DNA of 64,000 nucleotides from a virus (taxonomy: Duplodnaviria > Caudoviricetes), in IMG/VR virus record IMGVR_UViG_2595698595_000001, positions 128,001 through 192,000 of that record. One strand, given 5' to 3'. The notes under the pieces are model-generated. The model worked only from the letters and a program-made list of their open reading frames with translations. It did no database searches and was not told where the DNA came from. This document shows, in pieces, positions 3,541-30,186 of the stretch. A program made the position numbers and the translations under genes. Each line of letters starts with the position of its first letter. Position 1 is the stretch's first letter.

Positions 3541-3566
3541 TTACATTTTGACATATTAAATAAAGG

Positions 3567-3596
3567 AAACGATACTGATAATTATCAGTATCGTTT
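3567..3596 (+). terminator. perfect 30-bp palindrome, intrinsic terminator
   Basis: AAACGATACTGATAA|TTATCAGTATCGTTT followed by Ts. Confidence 0.75.
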
Positions 3597-3605
3597 TTTA
3601 GTTTC

Positions 3606-3634
3606 TGTAACTTTTTATCAATCTTTAGTACAAT
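3606..3634 (+). promoter_or_regulatory. phage early/middle-type promoter variant
   Basis: TGTAAC-N14-TAGTACAAT upstream of the glycosyltransferase cluster. Confidence 0.55.
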
Positions 3635-3656: not shown

Positions 3657-4832
3657 ATGCGTAAACTATACATACTGAAATTCGATGAATCTTTGGATGA
3701 CGTCTCATGGTATTCTAAAGATTCAGATCATTTAACAGTTTCTGAAGTTAAGAACTTTGTAGAATTTGCTAAAGACGGATTCGAAATAAATCTAATTTCG
3801 TATATATCAGAAACTAGGAAACGTGACAATCTTACATTTCTAAACGTTTTCGATTTCATAGATACCGATATAAAGGAATCAGATGTTGTAATTTTCTGGA
3901 CTGGTTACAATTATTCGACTAGAGTTAAATGTGGTGTTTATGGAACTTTATGGTATACATGTTTCGCTTCACTACATAACAAACCAGTAACCCCTTACGT
4001 TTTATGTACTGATACTAGATGTTTCATGATGAATCCAGAATTCTTCATGGATAACAAAGTTTATAGTTCAGTTATCGGTAATACAATTGACAGTTTAGCT
4101 AAATCTGTTGATAAAGTAAAATTCAAATATCTAACACAGGCTAGAAATACTGAAGAATTTAAGAATCTTGTAAGAGCTAATCGAGACGCTAATCAAAATT
4201 TCTTAGAAACTATACATATTCCAACTCACTTACTTCCATTAGTTTCTCACAGAATGGAAAATATTACATATGAACATGACAATCAATATGTTTATTATGG
4301 TAGCGCTCCAATAGATTTTAGTAAGAAACGTGATTATCGTACTGAGAATATCTTTAATCTTTTCTATGCTAATAACTTTACAAATAAAGCTAAGGGTCGT
4401 TTAATCATAAATACTAAAGCTTGTGAAGTTCCAACTCAAATTACTAGTAATATCAAAGTATCTGATAGAATACCTTATTCAGAAATAAAGAATATGCTTA
4501 ATAAATCATTCGCTTCTGTTATTCTATCTGAAGAAGCTTATCAAAAGTGTGAGTTAATACCTAATCGTTTAATCGAAGGGTTAGCTGCTAAAACGTTATT
4601 ACTAATACATGAACAAGTATTGGGAGGTCTTATGAAAACTATTCATGATATTGGTTTTTCGTTATTACAGGTTATTGATATATCCAATGAAAGAGATTAC
4701 GAAACATCTAAACAGATCGATGAGCTAGCTTCAAATCATGAATTACGTAGAAGTATTATCATCAGTAATCAAAAACTTCTGAAAACTATTTTCAATCCAT
4801 TGAATCTTACAAATACAATAAATCGACTATAA
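3657..4832 (+). CDS. GT-B DNA glycosyltransferase (T4 beta-glucosyltransferase-like), paralog 1
   Basis: LCTDTRC, YLTQA, YYGS, IPYSE and PNRLIEGLAAKTLLLIH resemble BGT motifs (FTDIRL, YGG, TLRVWETMASDAVMLID). Confidence 0.65.
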   Translation: MRKLYILKFDESLDDVSWYSKDSDHLTVSEVKNFVEFAKDGFEINLISYISETRKRDNLTFLNVFDFIDTDIKESDVVIFWTGYNYSTRVKCGVYGTLWYTCFASLHNKPVTPYVLCTDTRCFMMNPEFFMDNKVYSSVIGNTIDSLAKSVDKVKFKYLTQARNTEEFKNLVRANRDANQNFLETIHIPTHLLPLVSHRMENITYEHDNQYVYYGSAPIDFSKKRDYRTENIFNLFYANNFTNKAKGRLIINTKACEVPTQITSNIKVSDRIPYSEIKNMLNKSFASVILSEEAYQKCELIPNRLIEGLAAKTLLLIHEQVLGGLMKTIHDIGFSLLQVIDISNERDYETSKQIDELASNHELRRSIIISNQKLLKTIFNPLNLTNTINRL

Positions 4833-4834
4833 AA

Positions 4835-5992
4835 ATGAATACAACAAAGAGACGACTATTTTTAATCAAATTCAAAGATTCGTTATCACCTGAATGTATC
4901 GATAAAGATACTATCAGATACAAAGAAATCTACAATGTTTTAAGATTCGTACCAACTAATGAATTCGAAATCAATCTAGTAAATTACGATAATCCGAAAG
5001 TTTCTGAAGAAAATAATCAACAGTATTACAAATACATTCATTATGAAGATTTCAAGAATCTGGAATTACTTGAAACGGATTTGTTAATTTTCTGGACTGG
5101 TTATATTTACGTTCCAACAGATGTCGATGTATCTAAAACTGATGCTTCTAATATTCGAGCATTTTATGAATGTTTAGAATCTACAAGAAATAAAGATAAC
5201 AAGCGATATCTGATTTGTACAGATACTAGATGTCCATTGATTAAGCCTGGTTTTTATTCAAGTAATGAAATATTCAAAGAAGAACTTAAGGATATCAATA
5301 TCGATGACATTCATTTGACATACCTAACACAAGCTATCGATCCTGAAGCATTTATCGAAATCGTTAAATCTTCAGAAATTAATAGTGTTCATAAAAATGT
5401 ATCAGCTATTCATATGAAGCTACATTTAGCTCCGTTAGTTTCACATGACATTCCAAAGATTAAGGAAAATCATAATGGTAAGTTTTTCTATTACGCTGGT
5501 GACTTACGTGATATCAGTAAACATAGATACGATAATATCATTAAGTTCTATTCAGTAGATTCTTCAGATTTATCAGTTAAACCATTGATAGCTTCAAACG
5601 TTCATCCAGATATTTACGATAAATTACCAAATGTTGAATTTATCAATAAGATACCATATTCTGAAGTTCCTGTAAGATTAAATGAAATGTTCGCTTCTGT
5701 TTGTTTCTCTGAAGCTGATTACGAAAAATGTAGACTTTTACCAAATCGTATTGCTGAAGGTATTGCTGCAAAAACACTTTTATTGATTCATCATAATATC
5801 GATCCAGAACGTAAGTTGAATTTAGAACCTTTACAGTATTTCGAAACTGTTGAAGACTTTAAGAAATCTTTGAAGTATTATTCAGAAAAACCTCATAGAC
5901 GTATTAACGCTATCAACAATCAACGTTATCAACTTTCGATAGAAGGTGATTTAGATGCTTTTCAGTTTTCAAGGGACTTTAGTACTATTTAA
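4835..5992 (+). CDS. GT-B DNA glycosyltransferase (BGT-like), paralog 2
   Basis: Shares FWTGY, CTDTRC, YLTQA, IPYSE and PNR..EG.AAKTLLLIH with 3657..4832. Confidence 0.65.
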   Translation: MNTTKRRLFLIKFKDSLSPECIDKDTIRYKEIYNVLRFVPTNEFEINLVNYDNPKVSEENNQQYYKYIHYEDFKNLELLETDLLIFWTGYIYVPTDVDVSKTDASNIRAFYECLESTRNKDNKRYLICTDTRCPLIKPGFYSSNEIFKEELKDINIDDIHLTYLTQAIDPEAFIEIVKSSEINSVHKNVSAIHMKLHLAPLVSHDIPKIKENHNGKFFYYAGDLRDISKHRYDNIIKFYSVDSSDLSVKPLIASNVHPDIYDKLPNVEFINKIPYSEVPVRLNEMFASVCFSEADYEKCRLLPNRIAEGIAAKTLLLIHHNIDPERKLNLEPLQYFETVEDFKKSLKYYSEKPHRRINAINNQRYQLSIEGDLDAFQFSRDFSTI

Positions 5993-5995
5993 TAT

Positions 5996-7228
5996 ATGAA
6001 TAAACCATTAATACTTAGAGAACTAATATTCCAACAATATTCTAGTTACGATAAGAACATCCAGATGTACAACATACATCTGGATGGTAACTTAAATGCT
6101 ACATTACATGCAATTTGTAACGATTTCAAAGTTATGACAAATGTAGCATTACATTTGAAACGTAATTTCCATCTAGAATATACAATCACTATTCCAAAGA
6201 ATACAAAACCTAATTCGTTAACATTGATTACTAATTTCGTAGAAGGTTTAGAAAAACTGATATCTAACGAAAACGTTTCATTATCCATCGTATTCAAAAA
6301 TATCAAATATAGAAACTCTGCTAAAGAAAATCGAGATAACGGTGAATGGATATTAGCAGATGGTATTAACGAAATCGATATTAACGAATTCGATTCTATA
6401 TCAACTAATTTCGAAAAATCTTTAGACTTAGTTAGTTCTTTCGAAGCTTTATACAATTGGAAATCTGAAGTATCTGAAGCTTTTAGAATCCTAGACATTA
6501 AGAAACGTAGATTCAGTTCTAGATTAAACGTTTCGTTACATTCTAAGGAAGATGAACGTGAATATCTTAAAGGTCTTGAGAAGAACTGTTCAACACTTTT
6601 CGCATTTTCAGATTCTGTGACATTACATAATCAAGCTCAATTAGATTACATAAAGAATTATTATGTTTCAGATACATATGATAAATTTAGACTTTTGAAT
6701 GGTAAAATAAACAAAGGTTTTAATGCTGAATTTATAGAATATCAAATGTCATTTTACAAATCTGTAAATACGATAAAGAAAAATCAATTGATTCAGTTCT
6801 TCGAAAACTATGATATAGAATACATATTTCCTTTTAGACTAACTGACCCGGATTGGGGATTTCAAAATCTTACTGATGAAGAGAAATCAAAAACTGTAGT
6901 AACTGATCCAACGAATTCGATACTATTAGTAACTGATGAAATACAAAAAGCTTTCATCGAATGTGTCAGAGGTTTGGATAAACGTACATTATTATTTACG
7001 TTATTCGATCTTATCAGAACTAAGAAAATAGATGTAAAGATTCCACTGTTTTCTAATCCTTTGAATATTTTACATCAGACAAGTATCGAAATACTTTATT
7101 TGATATACGATAATATCGATTTCAGATTCGATAAACATGATACTTTCGAAACTGACATTTACGATATGTTCTATGTAACTGGGAATACAACAAATTGGTT
7201 AAACAAAATAACAAAAACAAATGACTAA
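5996..7228 (+). CDS. putative nucleotide/DNA glycosyltransferase, RB69-like arabinosylation-cluster family
   Basis: LDGN, ITIPKN, FPFRLTD and VTDPTNS match, from memory, the gene next to the dCMP-modifying TS homolog in arabinosylating T4-like phages. Overlaps the TS-like gene. Confidence 0.5.
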   Translation: MNKPLILRELIFQQYSSYDKNIQMYNIHLDGNLNATLHAICNDFKVMTNVALHLKRNFHLEYTITIPKNTKPNSLTLITNFVEGLEKLISNENVSLSIVFKNIKYRNSAKENRDNGEWILADGINEIDINEFDSISTNFEKSLDLVSSFEALYNWKSEVSEAFRILDIKKRRFSSRLNVSLHSKEDEREYLKGLEKNCSTLFAFSDSVTLHNQAQLDYIKNYYVSDTYDKFRLLNGKINKGFNAEFIEYQMSFYKSVNTIKKNQLIQFFENYDIEYIFPFRLTDPDWGFQNLTDEEKSKTVVTDPTNSILLVTDEIQKAFIECVRGLDKRTLLFTLFDLIRTKKIDVKIPLFSNPLNILHQTSIEILYLIYDNIDFRFDKHDTFETDIYDMFYVTGNTTNWLNKITKTND

Positions 7229-7928
7229 AATACAAGATAAACAAGAATTCGATAGTTTAGATGAAGCTTATCTAACTTTACTAAAAAGTTTGATCGATTT
7301 AGAACCTAACGAATTAGGTGAACGTGAAATGTTTGGTATCGCTTTCGATATCAAAAATATTGATGAAACTGATCCTAAAACTAATTTCAGTAAAATCAAA
7401 GAACGTAATATCAATTTAGTATTTCAAAATGCTTTCGCTCGTTGGTTAATGTCAGGTTCTAATTCAGCTGATGAGCTTTTACCACTGAATAAACGAACTT
7501 CTCAGTTTAATGAAATCGAAGGTAGAAATCTTCTATATCCACCACGTATTCAGAATCAAATTTATGACATAGTTGATGAATTAACCGAAAATCCTATGTC
7601 AAGACGTGCTACATTATTGATACTTGACGAAAGGGATCAGATAGTTAGAAAAGAAAAACGTGAGAAATCTGATTGTAAGAAAGAATATCCTTGTACAATA
7701 GCATTACATTTCTTTATTCGTAATAACAGATTACATTCAAATGTTATGATGCGTTCTAATAATGCTGTTAAAACTATATGTTTCGATTTTTCTAATTTCG
7801 CTTTCGTACAAAATTGTATAGCTAGAGAATTAGATTTGAAAGCTGGAACTATGCATTATTACATATCAAATGCTCACATTTTACCTGAAGATTATGAACA
7901 TGCTTTAAAAATCTGTGAAGCTAACTAA
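7221..7928 (+). CDS. thymidylate-synthase-fold dCMP-modifying enzyme (gp42-like hydroxymethylase/hydroxylase)
   Basis: SRRA, catalytic PCT, FFIRNNRL, MRSNN, Asp at the cytosine-specificity position (ICFD), and NAHI. Confidence 0.85.
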   Translation: MTKIQDKQEFDSLDEAYLTLLKSLIDLEPNELGEREMFGIAFDIKNIDETDPKTNFSKIKERNINLVFQNAFARWLMSGSNSADELLPLNKRTSQFNEIEGRNLLYPPRIQNQIYDIVDELTENPMSRRATLLILDERDQIVRKEKREKSDCKKEYPCTIALHFFIRNNRLHSNVMMRSNNAVKTICFDFSNFAFVQNCIARELDLKAGTMHYYISNAHILPEDYEHALKICEAN

Positions 7929-7976
7929 GAAACATTCGAATTGAGTTTGGTAATATTATACCAAACTCAATTTAAC

Positions 7977-9134
7977 ATGGCTAGAATAATAAAACTAGCA
8001 ATAATTGGTAACAGTGAGTATAACGATTTCGATCAGTTTACGAATCAGGTTACTGATGTATTGCAAAAATTAAAGAACACTACAGAAGACGTTTTGATCG
8101 AATATCATTACGTATCGATTGGTAGTAAATTAGGTGAATTGTCGAAGAGATTTCTAAATGCTAACCCAAAGCAACTCTATTCATCTCATACTATTCAATA
8201 CAAGAATCTTAATGCTAAACCTTGTACTGTAAGAATAGATAAGAACGGTGATTCTTATAACAGTTTAGCTCCTTTAGCTACACTTATAAATCTAATGAAT
8301 GTAGCAGATTATGTAATAGCTTTCTGGAATGGTACTGAAAAAGATTCTTTCATAAAAAGGGCTTTGACTAAATTCAAATCGAAATATTCTAAGAATTCTG
8401 AATATCGACAAAGATTACGAATAGTAAAATTCGAATCAGCTTGGATGCAAGCAAAAGGTGATTATGTTAAAGACATAGATCAGAATAAGGATTCATTGTT
8501 TTCAAAAGATTCTAAAGAATCGTATGTAACGATTAAAACTAAATTGAATACTATCAATCAGTCAGGATTAACACATGACGAGATAAACAAAAAGTTCAAT
8601 GATGTTGTAAAGAATCTAACAATAACTACTGAATCGCATTTACATGGTCCTAACTTTAAAATGTTACATGGTAATGGATCGTTAGAAGGTAAGCATACTA
8701 TCAGAATAAGTGGAACTCTCAGAAAGACTATGAATATCGAAAATCTTAACGATAATAACATAGCAACTGTAGCCTTTTATCTACCTGTAAATGAATTTGC
8801 AGATTTACTAAAGTTCATAATTTGGTGTCATGAAAACATAAAGATTATGGATGTTTCAGAAACTACAGAACTTCATAATAACGATGCTATAAATCCTCAA
8901 TGGTCTTACATGAATCATAAGGGTGAAAGTGTACATTTCTGTTACTATGAACAGAAACTTCCTGAAGTATCTTTCCAAATGATTAAGATGTATTCGATAG
9001 TTAACAATGTATCATACGAACAATTCGTAAATCTTTCACAATGGGGATTGTTTAACGCTAAAGGTTCTATCGTTTTCAAAGCTAGGAAATACTTGGAATG
9101 TTTACATGATTTGAAACTTATCCAAAAAGATTAG
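7977..9134 (+). CDS. SLOG/YspA (DUF2493)-like domain fused to an unknown domain
   Basis: LAIIGNSEYNDF...ADYVIAFWNG. ATG 7977 preferred because a promoter-like box covers 7928-7956. Confidence 0.55.
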   Translation: MARIIKLAIIGNSEYNDFDQFTNQVTDVLQKLKNTTEDVLIEYHYVSIGSKLGELSKRFLNANPKQLYSSHTIQYKNLNAKPCTVRIDKNGDSYNSLAPLATLINLMNVADYVIAFWNGTEKDSFIKRALTKFKSKYSKNSEYRQRLRIVKFESAWMQAKGDYVKDIDQNKDSLFSKDSKESYVTIKTKLNTINQSGLTHDEINKKFNDVVKNLTITTESHLHGPNFKMLHGNGSLEGKHTIRISGTLRKTMNIENLNDNNIATVAFYLPVNEFADLLKFIIWCHENIKIMDVSETTELHNNDAINPQWSYMNHKGESVHFCYYEQKLPEVSFQMIKMYSIVNNVSYEQFVNLSQWGLFNAKGSIVFKARKYLECLHDLKLIQKD

Positions 9135-9165
9135 TACTTTATATTTAATCAAATACTTATACAAC

Positions 9166-9708
9166 ATGAAACATTTAATGACTATTTTCATGATGTTAAT
9201 AGTTTCATTAACGTCATGTAACAAAGAGGAAATCATAGAACCTGAACCACCAAAGAAAATCAAATACGAATTGTTTCTTTGGTCTCCCGCTAGAATGGAA
9301 ACTTATTTTCTGATACGAGATGATTCAGATAAGCAATATCAAAGTTTCTTAGATTACGCTGATTGGAATATGTTTGCAGGTCCTGAAGATCGTAATAAAT
9401 CTGAAATTACATTTTCAGGTGAAATGTTAGAATCTGAAACTTTAAGATTCCATTTACGTGGATTAGATTACGATTTAATGCCAATGGAATATAATTTCAA
9501 GGATTTCGTTTTAACTATAGACGATGAAATTGTTTATGTCGATAAAGGTATCAGAATACATGAAATTCAAATCATATATGAAGCTAAAACTGGTAAGGTT
9601 ACTGTAAACAAAAATACTAATTACGATAACGAATTACCACGTATTCCAGCTGACAGACTTGATAGCTATTATCGACCTAACTATACTATCAAAAGACCTA
9701 GAAATTAA
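9166..9708 (+). CDS. lipoprotein
   Basis: Signal peptide with lipobox LTSC followed by NKEE. Promoter TGAAAC-N14-TAGTACTTT at 9112. Confidence 0.7.
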   Translation: MKHLMTIFMMLIVSLTSCNKEEIIEPEPPKKIKYELFLWSPARMETYFLIRDDSDKQYQSFLDYADWNMFAGPEDRNKSEITFSGEMLESETLRFHLRGLDYDLMPMEYNFKDFVLTIDDEIVYVDKGIRIHEIQIIYEAKTGKVTVNKNTNYDNELPRIPADRLDSYYRPNYTIKRPRN

Positions 9709-9738
9709 AACTTACCGTTTCGCAATACCCTTCTCAAT

Positions 9739-9766
9739 GAAAACCTGATAGAAATATCAGGTTTTC
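9739..9766 (+). terminator. intrinsic terminator
   Basis: GAAAACCTGATA-GAAA-TATCAGGTTTTC. Confidence 0.75.
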
Positions 9767-9771
9767 TAGTT

Positions 9772-9800
9772 TGAAACTTTGTTCAAATCATTAGTACTAT
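9772..9800 (+). promoter_or_regulatory. phage promoter for rml operon
   Basis: TGAAAC-N14-TAGTACTAT. Confidence 0.65.
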
Positions 9801-9822
9801 TCATTTAAATCAAATAATAATT

Positions 9823-10845
9823 ATGTCAAATATTAAACGTTCAGTTCTTGTAACTGGTGCTCTTGGATTCATTGGTTCTAATTTCGTTAGAACTATGGCA
9901 AAAAGATATCCAGATTACTTATTCATTCCACTTGATAATTTCGGATATGCTGCAAACCTGGAACATATCCCAGTCTTTGAAAAACTTACAAACGTTACAA
10001 AAGTTCAAGAAATAACTTTAGGTAGTTTCGATGAAGCTGAAAACTTTATTCTAGCTTCAATTTTCAAAACTTATGACATTGATACTGTGGTACATTTTGC
10101 TGCTGAATCACATGTCGATAATTCGATTTCTAATCCTGACATATTCGTTTTAGCTAATGTCAAAGGTACTGTCGATTTATTGAATGTTGCTAAGAATTAT
10201 TGGGCTGATCGTAAAGATGTAATATTCCATCATGTTTCAACCGATGAAGTATTTGGGGCTCTTGGAATGGAAGGTTCATTTAACGATGATTCTAATTACG
10301 ACCCACATTCACCTTATTCAGCTTCAAAAGCTGCAAGTGATATGTTCGTTAAAGCTTATGCTACGACTTACAATATGTTAGTATCGATTTCTAATTGTTC
10401 AAATAACTTCGGACCATATCAACACAAGGAAAAACTGATTCCAAAAGTTTTAGACGCAATTAAGAACAAAACTGAAATACCTCTTTACGGACATGGTCAA
10501 AATGTTAGAGATTGGTTACATGTTTTAGATCATAACGACGCTATAGATATGATTATCCATCATACTTTGAAATCTAAAGAATCTCGTAGAACTTGGTTAA
10601 TCGGTGGAGGTGTTGAATTAACAAATATAGAATTAATCGATAGACTAACAGAATCTGCTAATGAACATGATAATACATTTGATTATAAGTCATTGATTAA
10701 ATTCGTATCAGATCGTGCTGGTCATGATTTACGATATTCAATAGATTCTAGCACCTTACGTAAAGAACTTGAATGGAAGCCAAAATACGACATTACTAAA
10801 TGTATACCTTACATGATCGGAGAAACTTTAGGATTTACGAAATAA
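9823..10845 (+). CDS. rmlB: dTDP-glucose 4,6-dehydratase
   Basis: GALGFIG, HFAAESHVD, STDEVFG, YSASK, RDWLHV, DRAGHDLRY. Confidence 0.95.
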   Translation: MSNIKRSVLVTGALGFIGSNFVRTMAKRYPDYLFIPLDNFGYAANLEHIPVFEKLTNVTKVQEITLGSFDEAENFILASIFKTYDIDTVVHFAAESHVDNSISNPDIFVLANVKGTVDLLNVAKNYWADRKDVIFHHVSTDEVFGALGMEGSFNDDSNYDPHSPYSASKAASDMFVKAYATTYNMLVSISNCSNNFGPYQHKEKLIPKVLDAIKNKTEIPLYGHGQNVRDWLHVLDHNDAIDMIIHHTLKSKESRRTWLIGGGVELTNIELIDRLTESANEHDNTFDYKSLIKFVSDRAGHDLRYSIDSSTLRKELEWKPKYDITKCIPYMIGETLGFTK

Positions 10846-11417
10846 TGAAAAACATACCAGCAGGAATTGAAGGATGTATTTTTATACAGAATTCACAATT
10901 TAAAGATGAACGTGGATCGTTCAGAGAAACTTTCAGTAAAGAACGATTATCGTTCATATGTAAACATGAATTTGTTCAGGACAATGTTTCGATATCACAT
11001 AAGAATGTATTACGTGGAATGCATATTCAAACAGGTGATTCTGTACAAGGTAAACTTGTTACATGTCTTAAAGGTAGATTAATCGATTTAGTTGTAGACA
11101 TTCGTAAAGATTCTCTTACTTACGGTAAGACTATTACAGTATTACTACATGAACCAAATATGTCGTTATTTGTACCACGTGGTTGTCTACATGGATTCAT
11201 ATCATTAGAAGACGATACAATCATGCATTACAAATGTGATAACTATTATTCGAAAGAACATGAAGTATCTTATGACCCTTTAAGTTTACCGGAAAATATA
11301 TTCATACAAATCGAACAGGGTTTTAATATCGGTATAGACGATTTGATTATCAATTCTAAAGACAGAACTGGTAAAATGATCTATACTAACGAAGGAATTT
11401 TAAGTTCATTCATTTAA
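10845..11417 (+). CDS. rmlC: dTDP-4-dehydrorhamnose 3,5-epimerase
   Basis: DERGSFRE, FVQDNVS, LRGMH, QGKLV, HGF, YKC. ATG overlaps the rmlB stop (TAATG). Confidence 0.93.
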   Translation: MKNIPAGIEGCIFIQNSQFKDERGSFRETFSKERLSFICKHEFVQDNVSISHKNVLRGMHIQTGDSVQGKLVTCLKGRLIDLVVDIRKDSLTYGKTITVLLHEPNMSLFVPRGCLHGFISLEDDTIMHYKCDNYYSKEHEVSYDPLSLPENIFIQIEQGFNIGIDDLIINSKDRTGKMIYTNEGILSSFI

Positions 11418-11420
11418 CAT

Positions 11421-12302
11421 ATGCTTACAAGAAATAGAAAAGGAATTATTTTAGCAGGTGGGTCTGGGACCCGCTTGCATCCATTGACTATCAGTGTTTC
11501 GAAACAGTTATTACCTGTATACGATAAACCAATGATTTACTATCCATTGACAACTCTTATCGAAGCTGGTATAAACGAAATACTTATAATATCAACACCA
11601 CAGGATAGAAATTCTTTCGAGAACTTACTAGGTAACGGTTCACAATTTGGTGTTAGAATAGAATACGCTGTTCAAGAAAAACCTAATGGTTTAGCACAAG
11701 CTTTCGTTATCGGTGAAGAATTCATAGGTAAATCTAAAGTAGCTCTGATTTTAGGTGACAACATTTTCCATGCTTCTAATATAGATAGATTACTTATGGA
11801 AGCTAATATGTCTGATAAAAATACGATATTTGCATATCGTGTAAATGATCCTCAGAGATATGGTGTAGTTGAATTCGATGAATATGATAACGCTGTTTCG
11901 ATCGAAGAAAAACCTTTGAATCCTAAATCTAATTACGCAGTACCAGGCTTATATTTCTATAATAACGATGTTATCGAAGTAGCTAAGACTATCAAACCTT
12001 CAGCTCGTGGAGAATACGAAATATCAGATATTAACGCATATTACTTAGATAAGAATCAATTATCAGTTAAAGCTTTTGACAGAAGTGGTACTACATGGTT
12101 AGATACTGGTACTATTCAGTCTTTAGCTGAAGCTTCTTTATTTGTTGAAGTCATGCAAAATCGTACCGGTAATTTAATAGGTAGCCCCGAAGAAGCTGCA
12201 TTTAGACATGATGAAATATCTAAAGACTCATTAATTGAATCTGCTAAGAAATATGATAAGTCTGGTTATGGTGAGTATCTTTTGAAACTTGTACAGAAAT
12301 GA
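11421..12302 (+). CDS. rmlA: glucose-1-phosphate thymidylyltransferase
   Basis: GIILAGGSGTRLHP, SKQLLPVYDKPMIYYP, LGDNIF, EEKP, SARGEYEI, WLDTGT. Confidence 0.96.
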   Translation: MLTRNRKGIILAGGSGTRLHPLTISVSKQLLPVYDKPMIYYPLTTLIEAGINEILIISTPQDRNSFENLLGNGSQFGVRIEYAVQEKPNGLAQAFVIGEEFIGKSKVALILGDNIFHASNIDRLLMEANMSDKNTIFAYRVNDPQRYGVVEFDEYDNAVSIEEKPLNPKSNYAVPGLYFYNNDVIEVAKTIKPSARGEYEISDINAYYLDKNQLSVKAFDRSGTTWLDTGTIQSLAEASLFVEVMQNRTGNLIGSPEEAAFRHDEISKDSLIESAKKYDKSGYGEYLLKLVQK

Positions 12303-12312
12303 AAAACAAGAC

Positions 12313-12353
12313 TTGGAATGCTGTTTAAACAGCATTCCAATCTTTAGTATAAT
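12313..12353 (+). promoter_or_regulatory. palindrome-embedded promoter / terminator
   Basis: 28-bp perfect palindrome TTGGAATGCTGTTT|AAACAGCATTCCAA containing TTAAAC-N14-TAGTATAAT. Confidence 0.65.
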
Positions 12354-15244: not shown

Positions 15245-15805
15245 ATGAACATATTCTTCCTAGATAACGATGAAACTATTTCAGCTTCATTATATACTGA
15301 TAAGCATATTATCAAAATGATTACAGAAACTTGTCAGATGCTTTCAACTTACGCTCATGAGAAATTCGAAAATCATCCTGTAGAGCTTTACAAACCTACA
15401 CATCGTAATCATCCATGTACTAAATGGTTATTCGAATCAACTAATAACGTTATACGTTTATGTAATATCGGTATTGCATTAGTTTCTGAATATCATTACA
15501 GATTCGGTAAACTTAACAATTTCTATAAAGCTAAACAAATACTTCATTATGTTTCGTTTAGAATTCTAGATTGCAGTTTCGAACTAGGTACCGAATTACC
15601 CTGTGTTGTAGCTGAATATGATGAGAATCTTTCAGTTTTCGAAAATTACGAAAAGTATTACATTACTCACAAGTTACAAAATGCTAAGTTTACTAACAGA
15701 CGTGAGTCAGAATTACATTGGACTAATAAAGCTGTAACATATTACGGGCAACAAAAGATTAAGGAAATTCAACAGATACTTCAAATACCAATAGAAAGAT
15801 TTTAA
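15245..15805 (+). CDS. pyrimidine-dimer glycosylase/endonuclease V-related phage protein
   Basis: MNIFFLD, DKHIIKMITETCQMLST and YKPTHRNHPCTKW family signature. Confidence 0.7.
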   Translation: MNIFFLDNDETISASLYTDKHIIKMITETCQMLSTYAHEKFENHPVELYKPTHRNHPCTKWLFESTNNVIRLCNIGIALVSEYHYRFGKLNNFYKAKQILHYVSFRILDCSFELGTELPCVVAEYDENLSVFENYEKYYITHKLQNAKFTNRRESELHWTNKAVTYYGQQKIKEIQQILQIPIERF

Positions 15806-17824: not shown

Positions 17825-18147
17825 TGGAAAATACAGACTTACAATACAGAGATAATTCTTATTTTAACGAAAAAGATTATTACATATTCGAATCACATGG
17901 TCAGTTAATGCTCAGACAAGTTGAGTTTTCTGGAACTAACTGGTTTGTAAAAGATGGTGTACCTTACAAAGCTACAACTGTTAGATGTGTAGTTTCCAAC
18001 GTTGGTAACTTTATCAAATCTATAGAAACTTTACTTGAAAGTATTAACAAGAAACGTAAATATGGTGAACGTACTGGATTCTTTTATGCTGACTTGGGTA
18101 CTGGTTTAACATTAAATTATGATATGAGTTTCATGAAATATACATAA
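17824..18147 (+). CDS. hypothetical protein
   Basis: TAATG-coupled ORF. Confidence 0.55.
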   Translation: MENTDLQYRDNSYFNEKDYYIFESHGQLMLRQVEFSGTNWFVKDGVPYKATTVRCVVSNVGNFIKSIETLLESINKKRKYGERTGFFYADLGTGLTLNYDMSFMKYT

Positions 18148-18166
18148 TACATAAATCAAATAAGAC

Positions 18167-26024: not shown

Positions 26025-26744
26025 ATGAACAAACAAACTAATCTCCTGTTTGACGACAGACAAGACTTAGCTAAATCATTGGAACATAGACTGACCAATG
26101 TGAACAACCAACTTAACCAATTTGTAGCTGAATTCCGTAAACTTGTACAAGACCCGCAAAGTAATGTATTACACATGTTCGATATGATTATCAACAAAAA
26201 TGATAGAATCGATATCGATCATACAATCTATTTATGTGGTATCGGTAAGAACATTCCATCACTTCGTAAAGCTTCAGCAACTTTTAAATCGTTAGGTCTT
26301 AAATGTGAAGTACTTGACGCAGTTGATGCTTTACATGGTGATTTAGGTTGTATCAGGGATTATGATACTGTAATATTCTTTTCGAAATCTGGTAATACTT
26401 CAGAATTGTTAAGAACTATGCAATATTTAGATTCCATAAACACTGTAATTGATGGTGAAAGTTCTGTATCGAATAAATCTATTTGTATAGATATGTTTGC
26501 AGTTTCAATGAATAGCGAATTCGATTCAGGTTTTGAAAACTTCAAAACCATCAATCATGTAGTATTACCGAAAACCGGTGAAGCTGACGAATTCAATAAA
26601 GTCCCAACCACTTCACCGATAGCCTTCCAAATCTTCTTAGACATGTTAGCTTGTGAATATGCTTCTGTTTATGATTTGACTTTAGAAGATTTCGGTGGTA
26701 ATCACCCGGGTGGTGACATTGGAAAATTCATAAACAAAAACTAA
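26025..26744 (+). CDS. SIS-domain arabinose-5-phosphate isomerase (KdsD/GutQ-like, no CBS)
   Basis: GIGKN, DALHGDLG, SKSGNTSEL, PTTS, NHPGG. Confidence 0.88.
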   Translation: MNKQTNLLFDDRQDLAKSLEHRLTNVNNQLNQFVAEFRKLVQDPQSNVLHMFDMIINKNDRIDIDHTIYLCGIGKNIPSLRKASATFKSLGLKCEVLDAVDALHGDLGCIRDYDTVIFFSKSGNTSELLRTMQYLDSINTVIDGESSVSNKSICIDMFAVSMNSEFDSGFENFKTINHVVLPKTGEADEFNKVPTTSPIAFQIFLDMLACEYASVYDLTLEDFGGNHPGGDIGKFINKN

Positions 26745-26749
26745 ATACC

Positions 26750-26947: not shown

Positions 26948-26950
26948 ATC

Positions 26951-27466: not shown

Positions 27467-29197
27467 ATGGAGCATGTAGTTATATTGGCTGGTGGTCTTG
27501 GTTCTAGACTTCATAAATTTACAGCTAATCTTTATCCTAAGATTTTGATTTCGATGGGTAACGAAACTATGTTAGACAAACTTGTAAATTACTATTCAGT
27601 TTACAAGGATTTGAAATCGTTTAACATTGTCGTTTCGACTGAAGAAAATCAAAGACTTATATCTAATTATCTGAATCGATATCATTCTAACGCTTTCGGA
27701 AAAAATACAAAAATCGATGTATTACTTTACAAAAAGTTAGATGGTTCTTTCAATACGATTTACAACCTATTCAAGGGTCAGGGATTGAAGAATGTAGTAT
27801 TCAATTGGTCTGATATCATTCCAACATCACATCTTCAGGTAACAAAATTATTGACTAACGAATTCAAGATAATTACTGATGTTCAAAAACGTCATAGGAT
27901 GGGTATCGAATTTAGACAAGGTACAAGAACTTATGAAGTTGTCAAATATTCGAAAGATGATATGAAGGGTAACATTCCAGGATATTTCTTTATAGGTGAT
28001 TTCGATAGTATATTCGATCATGTATTCGTTGATAACTTAAGACTATATCATAATCTGTCACCAGAAATAGATTTGATGGATGCTTTAGAAGCACAAATCG
28101 AAAAGAATAGATGTATAGTTTCAACTAATGAAATAGATTTTATCGATATCGGAGATGTTGAAAAATATGAAAAATACATGGAAACGATATCGTTAGAAAC
28201 TAGATATTTCAATAGTTTAGAAATTACTGAAAATACAGTTCGTAAGAAAGCTTTAAACGAAAAAGGTATGTCAGTAATCGATAATGAATTGAATTGGTAT
28301 TCTACAGTTGGTAGATTCTTTCCAGATACTAAAAATCGTCCAGCTATTCCAAGAATTTCTAATATTCAAAAGAATTATGATTATCCTCAAGGTGAACAGA
28401 AATTTCATTCTATTGAATTTTCAATGAATCGTATTGACGGTAAAACTGTTGACGAATATCTTTGGAACGATCCTTTAGAAATGTATAATGTATTACGTTT
28501 ATTTGATACTGAGATTTCTAAGTTTCATAATATCGAACAATCGAATAAACCTGAAAAACGTTGGAATGAACATCATATGCATGAATATTTCAAAGTTACA
28601 TATCAACGTTTAGATGAAATATTCTTCATGTTACAAGCTGATGTACATCATTTCAAAATCGGTGATAAGATTCATAGTTTCAAAGGTGATACTATTCATT
28701 TACTTGAACATACTATGAAATATCTTTATGACGCTTATTCTAAATCTGAAGCTAATGAATGGGGATTGATTCATGGTGACCCAAACACTTCTAACGTAAT
28801 GATTTCTAATGATGGTACCGAAATGTTCTTTATCGACCCAAGAGGATTATTCGGACATTCTTTGATGTTTGGTGATATTTATTACGATTGGGCTAAATTC
28901 ATATATGGACTTCAAGGTTATTCTAGATTCAATTTAGATAAGACTTTCGAATTACATTATGACGAACATAGTAAAACTATGCAAGTAGATTTCTTCAAAT
29001 ATGGAATCTATGATATCGATACAGTGTTACATACTGTAAAACAGATTAGACCTGATTTAGATATCAAGCGTTTACGTGTTATCGTTGGTTTGATTCATGT
29101 TAAATTAGCACAGTACATAAGAAACAATCCATCAAAAATGTACGCAACTTATTATTACGGTAAATACTTATTAGAAACAACCTTATCTGAAAAATAA
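27467..29197 (+). CDS. sugar-phosphate nucleotidyltransferase fused to an APH/choline-kinase-like domain
   Basis: N-terminal ILAGGLGSR..YPKIL and DIGD; C-terminal IHGDPNTSN, FIDPRG, YDWAK. Confidence 0.85.
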   Translation: MEHVVILAGGLGSRLHKFTANLYPKILISMGNETMLDKLVNYYSVYKDLKSFNIVVSTEENQRLISNYLNRYHSNAFGKNTKIDVLLYKKLDGSFNTIYNLFKGQGLKNVVFNWSDIIPTSHLQVTKLLTNEFKIITDVQKRHRMGIEFRQGTRTYEVVKYSKDDMKGNIPGYFFIGDFDSIFDHVFVDNLRLYHNLSPEIDLMDALEAQIEKNRCIVSTNEIDFIDIGDVEKYEKYMETISLETRYFNSLEITENTVRKKALNEKGMSVIDNELNWYSTVGRFFPDTKNRPAIPRISNIQKNYDYPQGEQKFHSIEFSMNRIDGKTVDEYLWNDPLEMYNVLRLFDTEISKFHNIEQSNKPEKRWNEHHMHEYFKVTYQRLDEIFFMLQADVHHFKIGDKIHSFKGDTIHLLEHTMKYLYDAYSKSEANEWGLIHGDPNTSNVMISNDGTEMFFIDPRGLFGHSLMFGDIYYDWAKFIYGLQGYSRFNLDKTFELHYDEHSKTMQVDFFKYGIYDIDTVLHTVKQIRPDLDIKRLRVIVGLIHVKLAQYIRNNPSKMYATYYYGKYLLETTLSEK

Positions 29198-30186
29198 TGA
29201 AATTTAAAGGAACTGACCAAAAAACTTCAAGACTGATATTCACCGACTTCGATGGTATCTTCAGTCATGATATGCAATACTCATATATTGACAGAACTAG
29301 TAACGGTCCTGAGAAAAATGCAAAAACTGTAGCATTCGGTATTCGTGATGTTGTTAAGATTCTGAATTACGCTGGTTTCGAAATTCATATTGTTTCGGGT
29401 GATTCTACAGAAAAAGGTCAAGCTTTAACTAAGAAGTTTTTACATAACATTCATGTGGAATCTGTAAACTTTGTACCAACCGATCAAAAACTTGATAGAA
29501 TTCTTGAACTAGCTAATGGTAGGGATTTCATCTGGATCGGTGAGGACTTGATTGACTTACAAATCAAGGAATTCGCCATGAATTACATAACTACCGATAA
29601 CGCTCCAAACATGTTGAAGGAATTAGCTGATGCTAACTTTAGACAAGATTATTTTTGGCACGATTTGTTATCATATTTAATGAAAACTAAAATCTTCAAT
29701 GTTGTTGACGAAGATACACATTGTCTGATAAAATACGCTTTACAGAAATACATCAAACCAGATTTCTTCAAGTTAGTAAGTTACGGATTGATTGATAAAA
29801 ACTATCTAATCGAATCCTTAGAAACATATCGAGGTGTTGAAGAACTTAACGAAATCAAAGTTAACGATATTGAAGACTTCATGGATAAGATAAAAACTAC
29901 AGAAGTTCTAAAAACTGTACCAGTCTTTGGTAAACTCGATTTGATTTCATCTATGAAAGTTTTAGTCAATAACATTTGTAAACATGAACTTAAGTTTGTA
30001 TATACTAAGAACGTTCATTTGTTTTCAGACACTGTAAATATCGGTGACATATTCGAAGTTCTTTCATCATTAAGATTTACAGAATCTTCTAACAGTTTCC
30101 ACGATTACTATATCTACGGATTTACAAAAATCGTAGAAGGTAAGATTGAAAACATGTTAAACGAGAAGTTAGGAGCTAAATTCTAG
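29197..30186 (+). CDS. HAD phosphatase (KdsC-like) with C-terminal extension
   Basis: FTDFDG, VSGD, K, IGEDLID; TAATG-coupled to the upstream gene. Confidence 0.75.
   Translation: MKFKGTDQKTSRLIFTDFDGIFSHDMQYSYIDRTSNGPEKNAKTVAFGIRDVVKILNYAGFEIHIVSGDSTEKGQALTKKFLHNIHVESVNFVPTDQKLDRILELANGRDFIWIGEDLIDLQIKEFAMNYITTDNAPNMLKELADANFRQDYFWHDLLSYLMKTKIFNVVDEDTHCLIKYALQKYIKPDFFKLVSYGLIDKNYLIESLETYRGVEELNEIKVNDIEDFMDKIKTTEVLKTVPVFGKLDLISSMKVLVNNICKHELKFVYTKNVHLFSDTVNIGDIFEVLSSLRFTESSNSFHDYYIYGFTKIVEGKIENMLNEKLGAKF

What the first reader, a model, noticed from the sequence alone, without database searches (positions are those of the whole stretch)
3657..12302. Candidate new DNA hypermodification pathway: modified cytosine, three glycosyltransferases and dTDP-rhamnose genes
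Seen: two tandem paralogous BGT-like GT-B genes, a third transferase overlapping a dCMP-specific TS homolog, then rmlB-rmlC-rmlA. Each block is headed by the same phage promoter type (3606, 9772). Known: T4 makes glucosyl-hmC with gp42 plus BGT, and RB69-type phages make arabinosylated cytosine with a TS homolog, an adjacent transferase and sugar-activation genes. Inference: this phage may build a multi-sugar chain on C5 of cytosine, with arabinose first (see 26025-30186) and then a 6-deoxyhexose/rhamnose from the dTDP-sugar added by the two BGT paralogs. I know of no rhamnosylated or hetero-oligosaccharide DNA base, nor of such a pathway in Bacteroidota phages.
Basis: partly seen in the sequence, partly recalled or inferred. 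Interest (0 to 1): 0.92.

Follow-up and report, generated by a model that had tools for sequence, protein, structure and literature searches.

The report
Phage sugar-coated hydroxycytosine DNA pathway
A giant phage, probably of Bacteroidota, carries the genes to swap cytosine in its DNA for 5-hydroxycytosine and attach a short sugar chain, a DNA armour first described in 2026, and it might add rhamnose, a sugar not yet reported on DNA.

Summary
ORFs 3657 and 4835 are paralogs (34% identity). A confident model of ORF3657 matches T4 beta-glucosyltransferase first. ORF5996 is homologous to RL38J1 gp215, the putative first sugar transferase of a 5-hydroxycytosine phage. The overlapping thymidylate synthase (TS) homolog has E143/N169/D177, the published signature of 5-hydroxy-dCMP synthases, not of T4 hydroxymethylase. 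rmlB, rmlC and rmlA are real.

Beyond the finding, the genome holds a divergent RmlD-like reductase, a gp56-type dCTPase and an RB69-type arabinose-activation set at 26025-30186.

The core is therefore a new variant of the glycosylated 5-hydroxycytosine systems of RB69, DLP3 and RL38J1 (Lee et al. 2026), here in a 219-kb phage probably of Bacteroidota, with BGT-like extension enzymes.

The rhamnose-on-DNA idea is neither shown nor excluded (about 0.3).
- For: adjacency, a shared promoter class and a full Rml set.
- Against: 0 of 80 viral rmlA loci carry such genes. The relative MA9V-2 has a BGT-like gene and arabinose genes but no rml. DLP3 uses three transferases for arabinose alone.

This scan has seen rml cassettes beside phage transferases in other genomes and mostly judged them separable.

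A hetero-oligosaccharide DNA base is already known (RL38J1). Mass spectrometry of virion DNA would decide.

The parts
3606..3630 (+). Phage promoter-like motif TGTAAC-N14-TAGTA heading the transferase/TS operon. It follows a terminator-like hairpin at 3564-3599.
3657..4832 (+). T4 BGT-like GT-B glycosyltransferase, paralog 1 (391 aa)
   Evidence: Model pLDDT 86. Top 5 PDB matches are all T4 BGT. hhalign 96.9% to T4 BGT, with D119/R228/R304/E307 aligned to T4 D100/R195/R269/E272. phrog_32512. No Pfam family.
4835..5992 (+). BGT-like glycosyltransferase, paralog 2 (385 aa)
   Evidence: 34% identity to paralog 1, E 5e-55. D119, R228, R304 and E307 equivalents are invariant in alignment A1. Not folded itself.
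5996..7228 (+). Probable base-proximal DNA glycosyltransferase (410 aa), homolog of RL38J1_215. Its end overlaps the start of the TS homolog by 8 nt.
   Evidence: tblastn hits only Rhizobium phages RL38J1, RL2RES and P9VFCI: 24% identity, 87-88% coverage, E 2e-3 to 4e-3. The hit is RL38J1_215, next to TS homolog RL38J1_216. phmmer E 5.6e-8. hhalign 95.8%, E 6.7e-9. BFVD fold matches: KARL-1 1.5e-7, Muldoon 4.7e-5, RB69ORF047c 4e-4. Model pLDDT is only 70.
7221..7928 (+). TS-superfamily enzyme with the 5-hydroxy-dCMP synthase signature (E143, C146, T147, N169, D177 in E. coli ThyA numbering)
   Evidence: Pfam PF00303. Best PDB matches are MilA (2e-16) and 9iqu/9iqc (1e-14). Signature read from alignments with E. 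coli ThyA, T4 gp42, RB69 gp48 and RL38J1_216.
7941..9134 (+). Last gene of the operon, function unknown. The likely start is the ATG at 7977. Weak lead to a SLOG/YAcAr-like N-terminal domain.
   Evidence: No family or homolog found. Atlas feature scores 0.76-0.78, a lead only.
9166..9708 (+). Small lipoprotein-like gene with its own promoter motif (9112), lying between the two blocks. Probably not part of the pathway.
   Evidence: Signal peptide ending LTSC seen in the translation. Promoter motif.
9772..9796 (+). Promoter-like motif TGAAAC-N14-TAGTA heading rmlBCA. It follows a hairpin at about 9742-9770.
9823..10845 (+). rmlB, dTDP-glucose 4,6-dehydratase
   Evidence: PF16363 236.6 bits. TIGR01181 345 bits, cut-off 365.1.
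10800..11417 (+). rmlC, dTDP-4-dehydrorhamnose 3,5-epimerase
   Evidence: PF00908 162.3 bits. TIGR01221 146.7 bits, cut-off 155.75. phrog_8784.
11421..12302 (+). rmlA, glucose-1-phosphate thymidylyltransferase
   Evidence: TIGR01207 419.6 bits, above the cut-off of 360.65. Best cellular matches are Bacteroidota at 61-67% identity.
12313..12340 (+). Terminator-like 12-bp hairpin closing the rml cassette
26025..26744 (+). SIS-domain arabinose-5-phosphate isomerase homolog (RB69 gp55 type)
   Evidence: PF01380. KpsF/KdsD/GutQ families. phmmer to RB69p055, E 6.8e-15.
27467..29197 (+). Fused sugar-1-phosphate nucleotidyltransferase and kinase (RB69 gp52:53 / DLP3 gp82 / AfhE type)
   Evidence: Pfam NTP_transferase plus APH/EcKL. 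phmmer to RB69p052 2.2e-23 and to RB69p053 4.3e-10.
29197..30186 (+). HAD-type sugar phosphatase domain (residues 12-148) fused to an unknown C-terminal part. Functional counterpart of RB69 gp51 / DLP3 gp81.
   Evidence: NF058599, E 2e-4. No phmmer match to RB69p051.

Best explanation
The stretch is the core of a cytosine hypermodification system of the 'glycosylated 5-hydroxycytosine' kind.

Proposed course:
1. A gp56-type dCTPase (G000 84904-85407, outside the window) returns dCTP to dCMP. This step is inferred.
2. The TS homolog 7221-7928 hydroxylates dCMP to 5-hydroxy-dCMP. The signature is shown; the activity is inferred. Kinases raise it to the triphosphate and the phage polymerase builds it into DNA.
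3. After replication the ORF5996 enzyme, whose end overlaps the synthase gene's start, puts the first sugar on the 5-OH. This is inferred from homology to RL38J1 gp215 and fold likeness to RB69 gp46:47.
4. The two T4-BGT-like paralogs add further sugars, or act in different sequence contexts. This is inferred.
5. At least one donor is NDP-arabinose, made by the isomerase, the kinase/nucleotidyltransferase fusion and the HAD phosphatase at 26025-30186. Homology is shown; the product is inferred.

rmlBCA here, plus an RmlD-like reductase 64 kb downstream, can make a dTDP-6-deoxyhexose, probably L-rhamnose. I put about 0.3 on this sugar reaching DNA and about 0.5 on another target. The confidence given below is for the core (steps 1-5), not for the rhamnose link.
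For: TS signature: E143/C146/T147/N169/D177 is identical to the experimentally verified 5hodCMP synthases RB69 gp48 and RL38J1 gp216, and differs from T4 gp42, which has D143/D169/D177. Lee et al. propose D169N as diagnostic, and nine of nine tested D169N enzymes made 5hodC (section 28). A separate canonical ThyA (L143/H147/D169/N177) exists at G000 16974-18305, so the homolog is not needed for dTMP.

ORF5996: hhalign 95.8% to RL38J1_215. That gene also abuts its phage's synthase gene.

BGT-like paralogs.

Supply and pool genes: dCTPase homolog, E 2.6e-18. Arabinose genes, E 2.2e-23, 4.3e-10 and 6.8e-15 to the RB69 proteins. HAD phosphatase.

Lineage: the nearest relative visible to my searches is Chryseobacterium phage MA9V-2 (51 of 406 ORFs shared). 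The MA9V-1 paper names Sphingomonas phage PAU as a relative. Hua et al. 2017 report that PAU DNA runs 26% slower than lambda DNA and holds a partially modified cytosine of undetermined nature. For G000's base composition, three sugars on every C would lower charge per mass by about 18%, and one pentose by about 7%.
Against: - There are no chemical data for this genome.
- The ORF5996 model is mediocre (pLDDT 70). It has no PDB match at E<=1e-3 and no profile match to RB69p047.
- The extension enzymes are BGT-like, not the GT4-like enzymes of DLP3 gp76/77 and RB69 gp3, so their role is by analogy only.
- No T4 gp1-type dNMP kinase was found with RL38J1_219 as query (RB69 gp159 was not tried). 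There is only a thymidylate-kinase-like protein, PF02223 at 30.5 bits and E 1e-3 to RB69p045.
- Pfam recognises none of the three transferases.
- The PAU data apply only if G000 belongs to that lineage, which I did not establish. Those authors read the shift as lost negative or gained positive charge, and speak of partial modification.
Confidence: 0.72

Rival explanations
1. The glycan on cytosine is mixed: arabinose first, then a 6-deoxyhexose (rhamnose) from the phage's own dTDP-sugar, added by one or both BGT-like paralogs.
For: - rmlBCA lies two genes downstream of the transferase/TS operon.
- The transferase operon, rmlBCA, the distant RmlD-like gene and the operon ending in the dCTPase all carry the TAGTAC subtype of the phage promoter motif.
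- The Rml set is complete: RmlD-like, PF04321 at 102.6 bits, and all 8 PDB hits are RmlD.
- No GT2, GT1 or GT1_4 family gene was found elsewhere in the genome, so the three cluster enzymes are the only transferases recognised.
- G000 has two BGT-like genes and rml. MA9V-2 has one and no rml.
- Lee et al. expect further sugar combinations on 5hoC (section 29).
Against: - 0 of 80 IMG/VR rmlA loci (the best 80 of 253, +-10 kb) hold a BGT-like, ORF5996-like, cytosine-type TS, isomerase or kinase/NTase gene. The 15 TS genes found near them are all canonical ThyA.
- MA9V-2 couples a BGT-like gene to the arabinose genes without rml.
- DLP3 uses three transferases for arabinose alone, so three enzymes need no second sugar.
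- rmlBCA is a self-contained cassette between hairpins, with a lipoprotein gene before it.
- The promoter class has about 40 members.
- Adjacency means little in this genome: the arabinose genes lie 17 kb away and rmlD-like 64 kb away.
- The absence of other Pfam transferases is weak evidence, because the three real ones are also invisible to Pfam.
- rmlC occurs in 166 phage records, mostly phAPEC8-type coliphages.
Confidence: 0.3
2. The rml cassette is an auxiliary gene set unrelated to DNA. It feeds a rhamnose-type sugar into host envelope glycans (for example to block superinfection) or into glycosylation of virion proteins. The DNA carries arabinose-type sugars only.
For: - rml genes are common in phages without cytosine-modification genes nearby.
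- RmlA is of Bacteroidota type, 61-67% identity, as expected for a gene taken from a host lineage.
- The jumbo-phage review reads NDP-sugar/transferase clusters as envelope polysaccharide modification (passages).
- The RmlD-like gene sits after tail-type genes.
- A lipoprotein gene and a multi-pass membrane protein gene flank the cassette.
- Earlier notes of this scan on other genomes mostly judged rml cassettes separable from neighbouring transferases.
Against: No transferase that could use the sugar on another target was recognised in the genome (three Pfam families only). The RmlD-like gene has its own promoter of the same subtype as rmlBCA and the transferase operon, not a distinct late signal. 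The cassette directly neighbours the DNA-modification operon.
Confidence: 0.5
3. The base is 5-hydroxymethylcytosine as in T4, and the BGT-like enzymes glycosylate 5hmC directly.
For: The paralogs' nearest solved fold is T4 BGT, a 5hmC enzyme. The TS homolog's best PDB sequence match is the hydroxymethylase MilA. The relative MA9V-2 has a TS homolog with the gp42-type signature D143/D169/D177.
Against: The window's enzyme has N169, like every verified 5hodCMP synthase in Lee et al., whereas T4 gp42 keeps D169 here and MilA does by my reading of the alignment (the paper's text gives MilA Asp only at positions 177 and 143). It also sits beside a homolog of the RL38J1 transferase, a phage whose sugars are ether-linked to C5.
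Confidence: 0.06
4. The three transferases do not act on DNA at all. They would glycosylate proteins or lipids instead, and the TS homolog alone modifies the base.
For: No Pfam family and no experiment. GT-B enzymes have many kinds of acceptor. The second-tier fold matches of ORF3657 are protein and LPS transferases such as Gtf3 and WaaG.
Against: The top fold and profile matches are specifically the DNA enzyme T4 BGT, with its key residues kept. T4 alpha-glucosyltransferase is also among the matches. ORF5996 overlaps the base-modifying enzyme's gene and is homologous to the gene abutting RL38J1's synthase gene.
Confidence: 0.05

Closest known systems
Acinetobacter phage DLP3 gp76-gp83 cluster: tri-arabinosyl-5-hydroxycytosine (Lee et al., NAR 2026, PMC13326640)
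   Same: A 5hodCMP synthase with a transferase gene next to it, two further tandem transferase genes, an isomerase, a kinase/nucleotidyltransferase fusion, a HAD phosphatase and a dCTPase (sections 24, 25 and 27; own tests).
   Different: - The two tandem enzymes are T4-BGT-like here, not BshA/GT4-like.
- The first transferase is of the RL38J1_215 type by sequence.
- The sugar-supply genes lie 17 kb away.
- The host is probably Bacteroidota and the genome is 219 kb.
- A full Rml set is present.
Rhizobium phage RL38J1 (Pootjesviridae): galactosyl-(glucosyl)n-5-hydroxycytosine, gp214-216
   Same: The only sequence-level relatives of ORF5996 among 50,697 phage records are RL38J1_215 and its orthologs. 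That gene abuts the 5hodCMP synthase gene, as here. The glycan is mixed and has up to three sugars.
   Different: The gene order is reversed (synthase first). Sugar supply is by a UDP-galactopyranose mutase. The other transferases are of other families. The role of gp215 as galactosyltransferase 1 is itself a computational assignment in that paper.
Phage T4 gp42 (dCMP hydroxymethylase) with beta-glucosyltransferase
   Same: A TS-superfamily enzyme acting on dCMP, a dCTPase, and post-replicative sugar transfer by a GT-B enzyme. The BGT gene lies next to gene 42 in T4. The paralogs share fold, profile similarity and the D100/R195/R269/E272 equivalents.
   Different: N169 instead of D169 in the base-modifying enzyme. 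About 15% sequence identity to BGT. No Pfam match. Two copies plus a third, unrelated transferase. The phage makes its own sugar nucleotides.
Chryseobacterium phages MA9V-1 and MA9V-2 (the nearest relatives visible to my searches)
   Same: 51 of 406 G000 ORFs have a match in MA9V-2, among them one BGT-like gene, the isomerase, the kinase/NTase fusion and the HAD phosphatase.
   Different: The TS homolog has the gp42-type signature. There is no ORF5996 homolog and no rml gene. No DNA chemistry turned up in a term search of the MA9V-1 paper (6 terms; 12 of 16 passages seen).
rmlA/rmlC genes of phAPEC8-type coliphages and other phages
   Same: Phage-borne dTDP-rhamnose genes. RmlC is about 40% identical.
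   Different: Across other viral contigs, no cytosine-type TS homolog or DNA-type transferase lies next to rmlA (0 of 80 IMG/VR loci; the GenBank phAPEC8-type records were not examined for this).

Membership tests
Glycosylated 5-hydroxycytosine DNA systems (RB69 / DLP3 / RL38J1) | TS-superfamily enzyme with the catalytic Cys plus D169N, N177D and L143E (E. coli ThyA numbering) | tested here: met
   E143, C146, N169 and D177 in two independent MAFFT alignments with E. coli ThyA, RB69 gp48, RL38J1_216 and T4 gp42.
Glycosylated 5-hydroxycytosine DNA systems (RB69 / DLP3 / RL38J1) | The enzyme makes 5-hydroxy-dCMP (flavin- and O2-dependent) | not testable with these tools
   Needs the in vivo assay of Lee et al. 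(section 24).
Glycosylated 5-hydroxycytosine DNA systems (RB69 / DLP3 / RL38J1) | A glycosyltransferase gene directly beside the synthase gene | tested here: met
   8-nt overlap. Homology to RL38J1_215. Fold match to RB69ORF047c, E 4e-4. No profile match to RB69p047.
Glycosylated 5-hydroxycytosine DNA systems (RB69 / DLP3 / RL38J1) | Phage-encoded NDP-sugar supply (isomerase, kinase/nucleotidyltransferase, phosphatase) | tested here: met
   The phosphatase matches only at the level of the HAD family.
Glycosylated 5-hydroxycytosine DNA systems (RB69 / DLP3 / RL38J1) | dCTPase and a nucleotide kinase to bias the pool | tested here: inconclusive
   dCTPase homolog, E 2.6e-18. The kinase is only weakly supported: PF02223 at 30.5 bits and E 1e-3 to RB69p045. 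No hit with RL38J1_219.
Glycosylated 5-hydroxycytosine DNA systems (RB69 / DLP3 / RL38J1) | Ether-linked sugars on C5 of cytosine in virion DNA | not testable with these tools
   Only indirect: Hua et al. 2017 on phage PAU (passages). The kinship of G000 to PAU was not established.
T4 beta-glucosyltransferase family (CAZy GT63; the name is recalled) | GT-B fold closest to T4 BGT | tested here: met
   Top 5 of 82 PDB matches at E<=1e-3 are T4 BGT entries.
T4 beta-glucosyltransferase family (CAZy GT63; the name is recalled) | Sequence-profile homology to T4 BGT | tested here: met
   hhalign probability 96.9%, E 2e-10, 273 columns. No Pfam family was reported for the protein at E<=0.01.
T4 beta-glucosyltransferase family (CAZy GT63; the name is recalled) | Catalytic Asp100 and nucleotide-binding Arg195, Arg269, Glu272 (the roles are recalled from the BGT structure papers) | tested here: met
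   They align with D119, R228, R304 and E307. These are invariant in A1 and invariant or nearly so in the 18-sequence A3. The Arg191 equivalent is not evident.
T4 beta-glucosyltransferase family (CAZy GT63; the name is recalled) | Transfers glucose from UDP-glucose to 5hmC in duplex DNA | not testable with these tools
   Donor and acceptor are unknown. The predicted base here is 5hoC or a sugar already attached to it.
dTDP-L-rhamnose pathway RmlABCD | RmlA, RmlB and RmlC equivalogs | tested here: met
   RmlA 419.6 bits, above the cut-off of 360.65. RmlB 345 (cut-off 365.1) and RmlC 146.7 (cut-off 155.75) fall just below the NCBIfam cut-offs but far above the Pfam ones.
dTDP-L-rhamnose pathway RmlABCD | RmlD 4-reductase | tested here: inconclusive
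   436-aa protein at G000 201664-202974. PF04321 at 102.6 bits (cut-off 27), but TIGR01214 at 96.4 bits (cut-off 224). All 8 PDB hits are RmlD, and the TGxxGxxG and YxxxK motifs are visible. The stereochemistry of the product is unknown.
T4-type 5-hydroxymethylcytosine system (gp42) | Asp kept at ThyA position 169, together with D177 and an acidic residue at 143 | tested here: not met
   N169.

The most novel reading that the evidence does not exclude
This phage lineage builds a mixed trisaccharide on 5-hydroxycytosine that includes a 6-deoxyhexose (L-rhamnose or an epimer) drawn from a phage-encoded dTDP-sugar pathway. T4-BGT-like enzymes would have been retooled to extend a sugar chain and to use a dTDP donor. 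This would be the first deoxyhexose on a DNA base and the first dTDP-sugar-dependent DNA glycosylation. It would also explain the unusually large gel retardation and the unidentified modified cytosine reported for the cultured relative PAU.
Probability: 0.3. Interest if true: 0.85.

Novelty: new variant of a known kind. Interest (0 to 1): 0.6.

Why it matters
Glycosylated 5-hydroxycytosine was described only in 2026, and in the sections I read (24, 25, 27-29) only for phages of Proteobacteria: Straboviridae, Pootjesviridae and Shewanella phage Thanatos (the nine IMG/VR enzymes tested there are listed in figures and supplements I could not see).

- If the reading holds, the chemistry extends to a jumbo phage probably of Bacteroidota.
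- It shows the modules can be recombined: an RL38J1-type first transferase, T4-BGT-type extension enzymes and an RB69-type arabinose supply.
- It gives a concrete, testable prediction for a modified cytosine left unidentified since 2017 in a cultured relative (Hua et al.).
- The distant relative MA9V-2 appears to run the same sugar genes on a hydroxymethyl-type base. That would make this lineage a natural experiment on how sugar modules move between bases.
- If the dTDP-sugar also reaches DNA, it would be a new class of DNA sugar and donor, relevant to restriction evasion, type IV restriction targets and enzymatic DNA labelling.

Tried and rejected
Scans of viral contigs with A1 and A2 and of metagenome contigs with A5 and A2 found pattern matches but no relative.
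- So the two uncultured relatives remain unseen. They are inferred only from equal longest-contig lengths: P0008 with P0004 on 68,591 bp, and P0002 with P0006 on 19,372 bp. Whether they carry rml is unknown.
- The BGT-like family is very rare: 26 representatives at E<=1e-3 among 1.84 billion, and only 4 at E<=1e-30, three of which were members of the query alignment.
- The word-based search found 1 relative for ORF3657 besides itself, 3 for ORF5996 and none for ORF7941.
- megablast of the region against 50,697 phage records gave no match.
- ORF5996: the PDB Foldseek search gave nothing at E<=1e-3. The Atlas search was uninformative; its own model has pLDDT 0.41. The pdb_via and pdb_via_wide libraries were not available.
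- ORF7941: only feature scores of 0.76-0.78 to SLOG/YAcAr clusters.
- ORF12390 after rmlA is a multi-pass membrane protein. The 347-aa gene before the RmlD-like gene carries the capsid-targeting-type leader. Neither looks like a transferase.
- Literature: searches for rhamnose with hypermodification and glycosyltransferase (4 papers; passages of 2 checked) and for rhamnose with modified cytosine (10 papers, listing only) showed no rhamnosylated DNA base. Lee et al. has 0 occurrences of rhamnose, dTDP or deoxyhexose in its main text.
- Supplements were closed. Fig. S3 of Hua et al. and the list of the nine IMG/VR enzymes tested by Lee et al. could bear on this and were not seen.
- I did not use complex prediction, the look-up of sequencing runs or read laying. 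None would decide the sugar question.
- I did not try to tell UDP from dTDP donor preference from the models. I know of no reliable rule for it.

Full report
WHAT IS THERE. The window is bases 128001-192000 of a 219,372-base virus record, G000. It has about 31% G+C, and 164 of 168 ORFs of at least 150 aa lie on the + strand. They are 3657-4832, 4835-5992, 5996-7228, 7221-7928, 7941-9134 and 9166-9708, followed by 9823-10845, 10800-11417 and 11421-12302.

THE TWO PARALOGS. The first two proteins are 34% identical (E 5e-55). Neither matches any Pfam or NCBIfam family. Both match phrog_32512, of unknown function, almost perfectly. Their family is very rare: a profile search of 1.84 billion representatives found 26 proteins at E<=1e-3. 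An AlphaFold2 model of ORF3657 built on 18 family members is confident (pLDDT 86, pTM 0.88). Its five best PDB matches are all phage T4 beta-glucosyltransferase (E 7.5e-14 to 7.6e-11, TM 0.64-0.77). The next fold is far behind (E 3e-8, TM 0.43), and T4 alpha-glucosyltransferase is also listed. A profile comparison with the T4 BGT sequence gives probability 96.9%. In it, T4 D100, R195, R269 and E272 line up with D119, R228, R304 and E307. I recall these T4 residues as the catalytic base and nucleotide-binding residues. The four equivalents are invariant among both paralogs and their closest relative, and invariant or nearly so across 18 members. ORF4835 was not folded separately.

THE THIRD TRANSFERASE. 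The end of ORF5996 overlaps the start of the TS homolog by 8 nt. Its model is mediocre (pLDDT 70) and finds nothing in the PDB at E<=1e-3. Among 50,697 phage records, however, it matches only Rhizobium phages RL38J1, RL2RES and P9VFCI: 6 records of 3 phages, 24% identity over 87-88% of its length. The matched gene is RL38J1_215, which abuts the TS homolog RL38J1_216. phmmer gives E 5.6e-8. hhalign gives 95.8% and E 6.7e-9 over 290 columns, with shared QQYS, DGNL, ENRKN and FPxRLTDxDxG motifs. In the viral structure library, after an identical entry, the matches at E<=1e-3 are proteins of Acinetobacter phage KARL-1, Serratia phage Muldoon and RB69ORF047c. Lee et al. label RL38J1 gp215 'galactosyltransferase 1' and RB69 gp46:47 'arabinosyltransferase 1'; both assignments are computational (Table 1).

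THE BASE-MODIFYING ENZYME. The 235-aa TS homolog matches MilA and the chains 9iqu/9iqc best in the PDB. I aligned it with E. coli ThyA, T4 gp42, RB69 gp48 and RL38J1 gp216. It has E143, C146, T147, N169 and D177, the same as the two verified 5-hydroxy-dCMP synthases. T4 gp42 has D143, D169 and D177. Lee et al. (NAR 2026, PMC13326640) show that RB69 gp48 and DLP3 gp80 make 5hodCMP. They propose D169N as diagnostic, and nine of nine tested D169N homologs made 5hodC. I read the abstract and sections 24, 25, 27, 28 and 29. The genome also has a canonical ThyA at 16974-18305. The predicted base is therefore 5-hydroxycytosine rather than a hydroxymethyl base.

THE REST OF THE PATHWAY.
- phmmer with RB69 proteins finds a gp56-type dCTPase at G000 84904-85407 (E 2.6e-18).
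- It finds the kinase/nucleotidyltransferase fusion at window 27467-29197 (E 2.2e-23 and 4.3e-10).
- It finds the arabinose-5-phosphate isomerase at 26025-26744 (E 6.8e-15).
- ORF29197 begins with a HAD sugar-phosphatase domain.
- A thymidylate-kinase-like protein lies at G000 125575-126180, with weak support.

Together with three transferases, this is the parts list of the DLP3 and RB69 arabinosyl-5hoC clusters.

THE RML GENES. RmlA scores above the curated equivalog cut-off. RmlB and RmlC score just under theirs but far above the Pfam thresholds. No rmlD is in the window. A 436-aa SDR at G000 201664-202974 matches the RmlD substrate-binding family (102.6 bits), and all 8 of its PDB hits are RmlD. 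It stays below the equivalog cut-off. It lies after tail-type genes and after a gene with the capsid-targeting-type leader, yet it has its own promoter motif.

PROMOTERS. The motif TGWAAC-N14-TAGTA occurs 15 times in the window, all on the + strand, against 0.16 expected. There are about 40 genome-wide: 16 sites with TAGTAC (any base allowed before GWAAC) plus 24 other TGWAAC sites. The TAGTAC subtype heads the transferase/TS operon (3606), the lipoprotein gene (9112), rmlBCA (9772), the RmlD-like gene, and the operon that ends in the dCTPase. Hairpins at about 9742-9770 and at 12313-12340 bracket rmlBCA. The shared promoter type is real, but it is a general class.

DOES THE dTDP-SUGAR GO TO DNA? 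Points for:
- adjacency to the modification operon
- the shared promoter subtype
- a complete Rml set
- no GT2, GT1 or GT1_4 family gene elsewhere in the genome
- two BGT-like genes here against one in a relative that lacks rml.

Points against:
- In Chryseobacterium phage MA9V-2, 51 of 406 G000 ORFs have matches. It has one BGT-like gene, the isomerase, the kinase/NTase fusion and the HAD phosphatase. It has no rml gene, no ORF5996 homolog, and a TS homolog with the gp42-type signature. BGT-like enzymes of this lineage therefore go with the arabinose-type supply, not with rml.
- Among the best 80 of 253 IMG/VR loci with an RmlA homolog, 0 of 80 hold a BGT-like, ORF5996-like, cytosine-type TS, isomerase or kinase/NTase gene within 10 kb. 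Of the same 80, 38 hold rmlB, 30 rmlC and 18 an RmlD-like gene. Fifteen hold a TS gene, and all 15 are canonical ThyA.
- rmlC occurs in 166 phage records, mostly phAPEC8-type.
- DLP3 uses three transferases for arabinose alone.
- The Pfam test for other transferases is weak, since the three real ones also escape Pfam.

I put the mixed-glycan reading at about 0.3.

LINEAGE AND PUBLISHED CHEMISTRY. RmlA is closest to Bacteroidota proteins (61-67% identity), and the nearest relative visible to my searches infects Chryseobacterium. The MA9V-1 paper (passages) names Sphingomonas phage PAU and Tenacibaculum phages PTm1 and pT24 as relatives. A genome note proposes that PAU's host is a Sphingobacterium (search listing and abstract start only). 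Hua et al. 2017 (passages) report that PAU DNA migrates 26% slower than lambda DNA in a constant field. They also report a partially modified cytosine whose nature was not determined. The jumbo-phage review repeats this (passages). For G000's composition, one pentose on every C would lower charge per mass by about 7%, and three sugars by about 18%. I did not establish whether G000 is that phage or a relative, so these data are a lead for the decisive experiment and not evidence about G000 itself.

NOVELTY. The pathway kind is published. What remains new:
- the probable host phylum
- the combination of an RL38J1-type first transferase with two T4-BGT-type enzymes and an RB69-type arabinose supply
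- the unresolved possibility of a deoxyhexose.

I found no report of a rhamnosylated DNA base in the searches, nor in the main text of Lee et al.. The authors themselves expect further sugar combinations (section 29).

VERDICT. This is a new variant of a known kind, with interest 0.6. The boldest reading still open, a dTDP-deoxyhexose on DNA, stands at 0.3.

Noticed in passing
L002/L012/L014 and the rebuilt MA9V-2 record (OR513085.1): about 93.6-94.9 kb, 117.1-117.7 kb, 184.9-187.7 kb: Chryseobacterium phage MA9V-2 has a 448-aa TS homolog with the T4 gp42-type signature (D143, D169, D177). It also has one BGT-like gene and RB69-type isomerase, kinase/NTase and HAD genes. That predicts a pentose- or other sugar-decorated 5-hydroxymethylcytosine. 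No DNA chemistry turned up in the passages of the MA9V-1 paper that my term search returned (12 of 16 shown).
   Followed up: partly
G000:C1:201598-202974 (L007:9598-10974), outside the window: A divergent 436-aa RmlD-like reductase, about 150 aa longer than solved RmlD proteins. It sits after tail-type genes but has its own promoter motif, nearly identical to the one before rmlB.
   Followed up: partly
window 9112-9708: A small gene with a lipoprotein-type signal peptide (cleavage-site motif LTSC) and its own promoter motif lies between the DNA-modification operon and the rml cassette. It is a possible superinfection-exclusion or envelope protein.
   Followed up: no
window 7941-9134: The last gene of the transferase/TS operon has no homolog in 5.8 billion proteins apart from itself. 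Its N-terminal 140 residues look SLOG/YAcAr-like on weak Atlas scores (0.76-0.78). The annotated TTG start is probably wrong; an ATG at 7977 fits better.
   Followed up: partly
whole genome G000; window sites listed: About 40 copies of a phage promoter-like motif, TGWAAC-N14-TAGTA, all on the + strand. There are two subtypes, TAGTAC and TAGTAT-AAT. Many lie inside hairpins, as other notes of this scan describe.
   Followed up: partly
L116-L132 and L149 (IMG/VR loci around rmlA homologs): In 15 of 80 viral contigs a canonical thymidylate synthase gene lies within 10 kb of rmlA, most of them 1-5 kb upstream. This may reflect a dTTP-supply link or simply a shared nucleotide-metabolism module.
   Followed up: partly
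window 15245-15805: A T4 DenV-like pyrimidine-dimer DNA glycosylase domain (PF03013, 26.9 bits).
   Followed up: no
G000:C1:16974-18305, outside the window: The canonical ThyA is 443 aa long, with large insertions: the Pfam match spans residues 2-382 for 238 model positions.
   Followed up: no
L007:8549-9592 (G000 200549-201592): The 347-aa protein upstream of the RmlD-like gene begins with the LNEA-type capsid-targeting-like leader described in another finding on this genome.
   Followed up: no
window 29197-30186: The HAD phosphatase domain is fused to a C-terminal part of about 180 aa of unknown function. It has a weak match to a capsid protein family (PF23369, below the cut-off).
   Followed up: no
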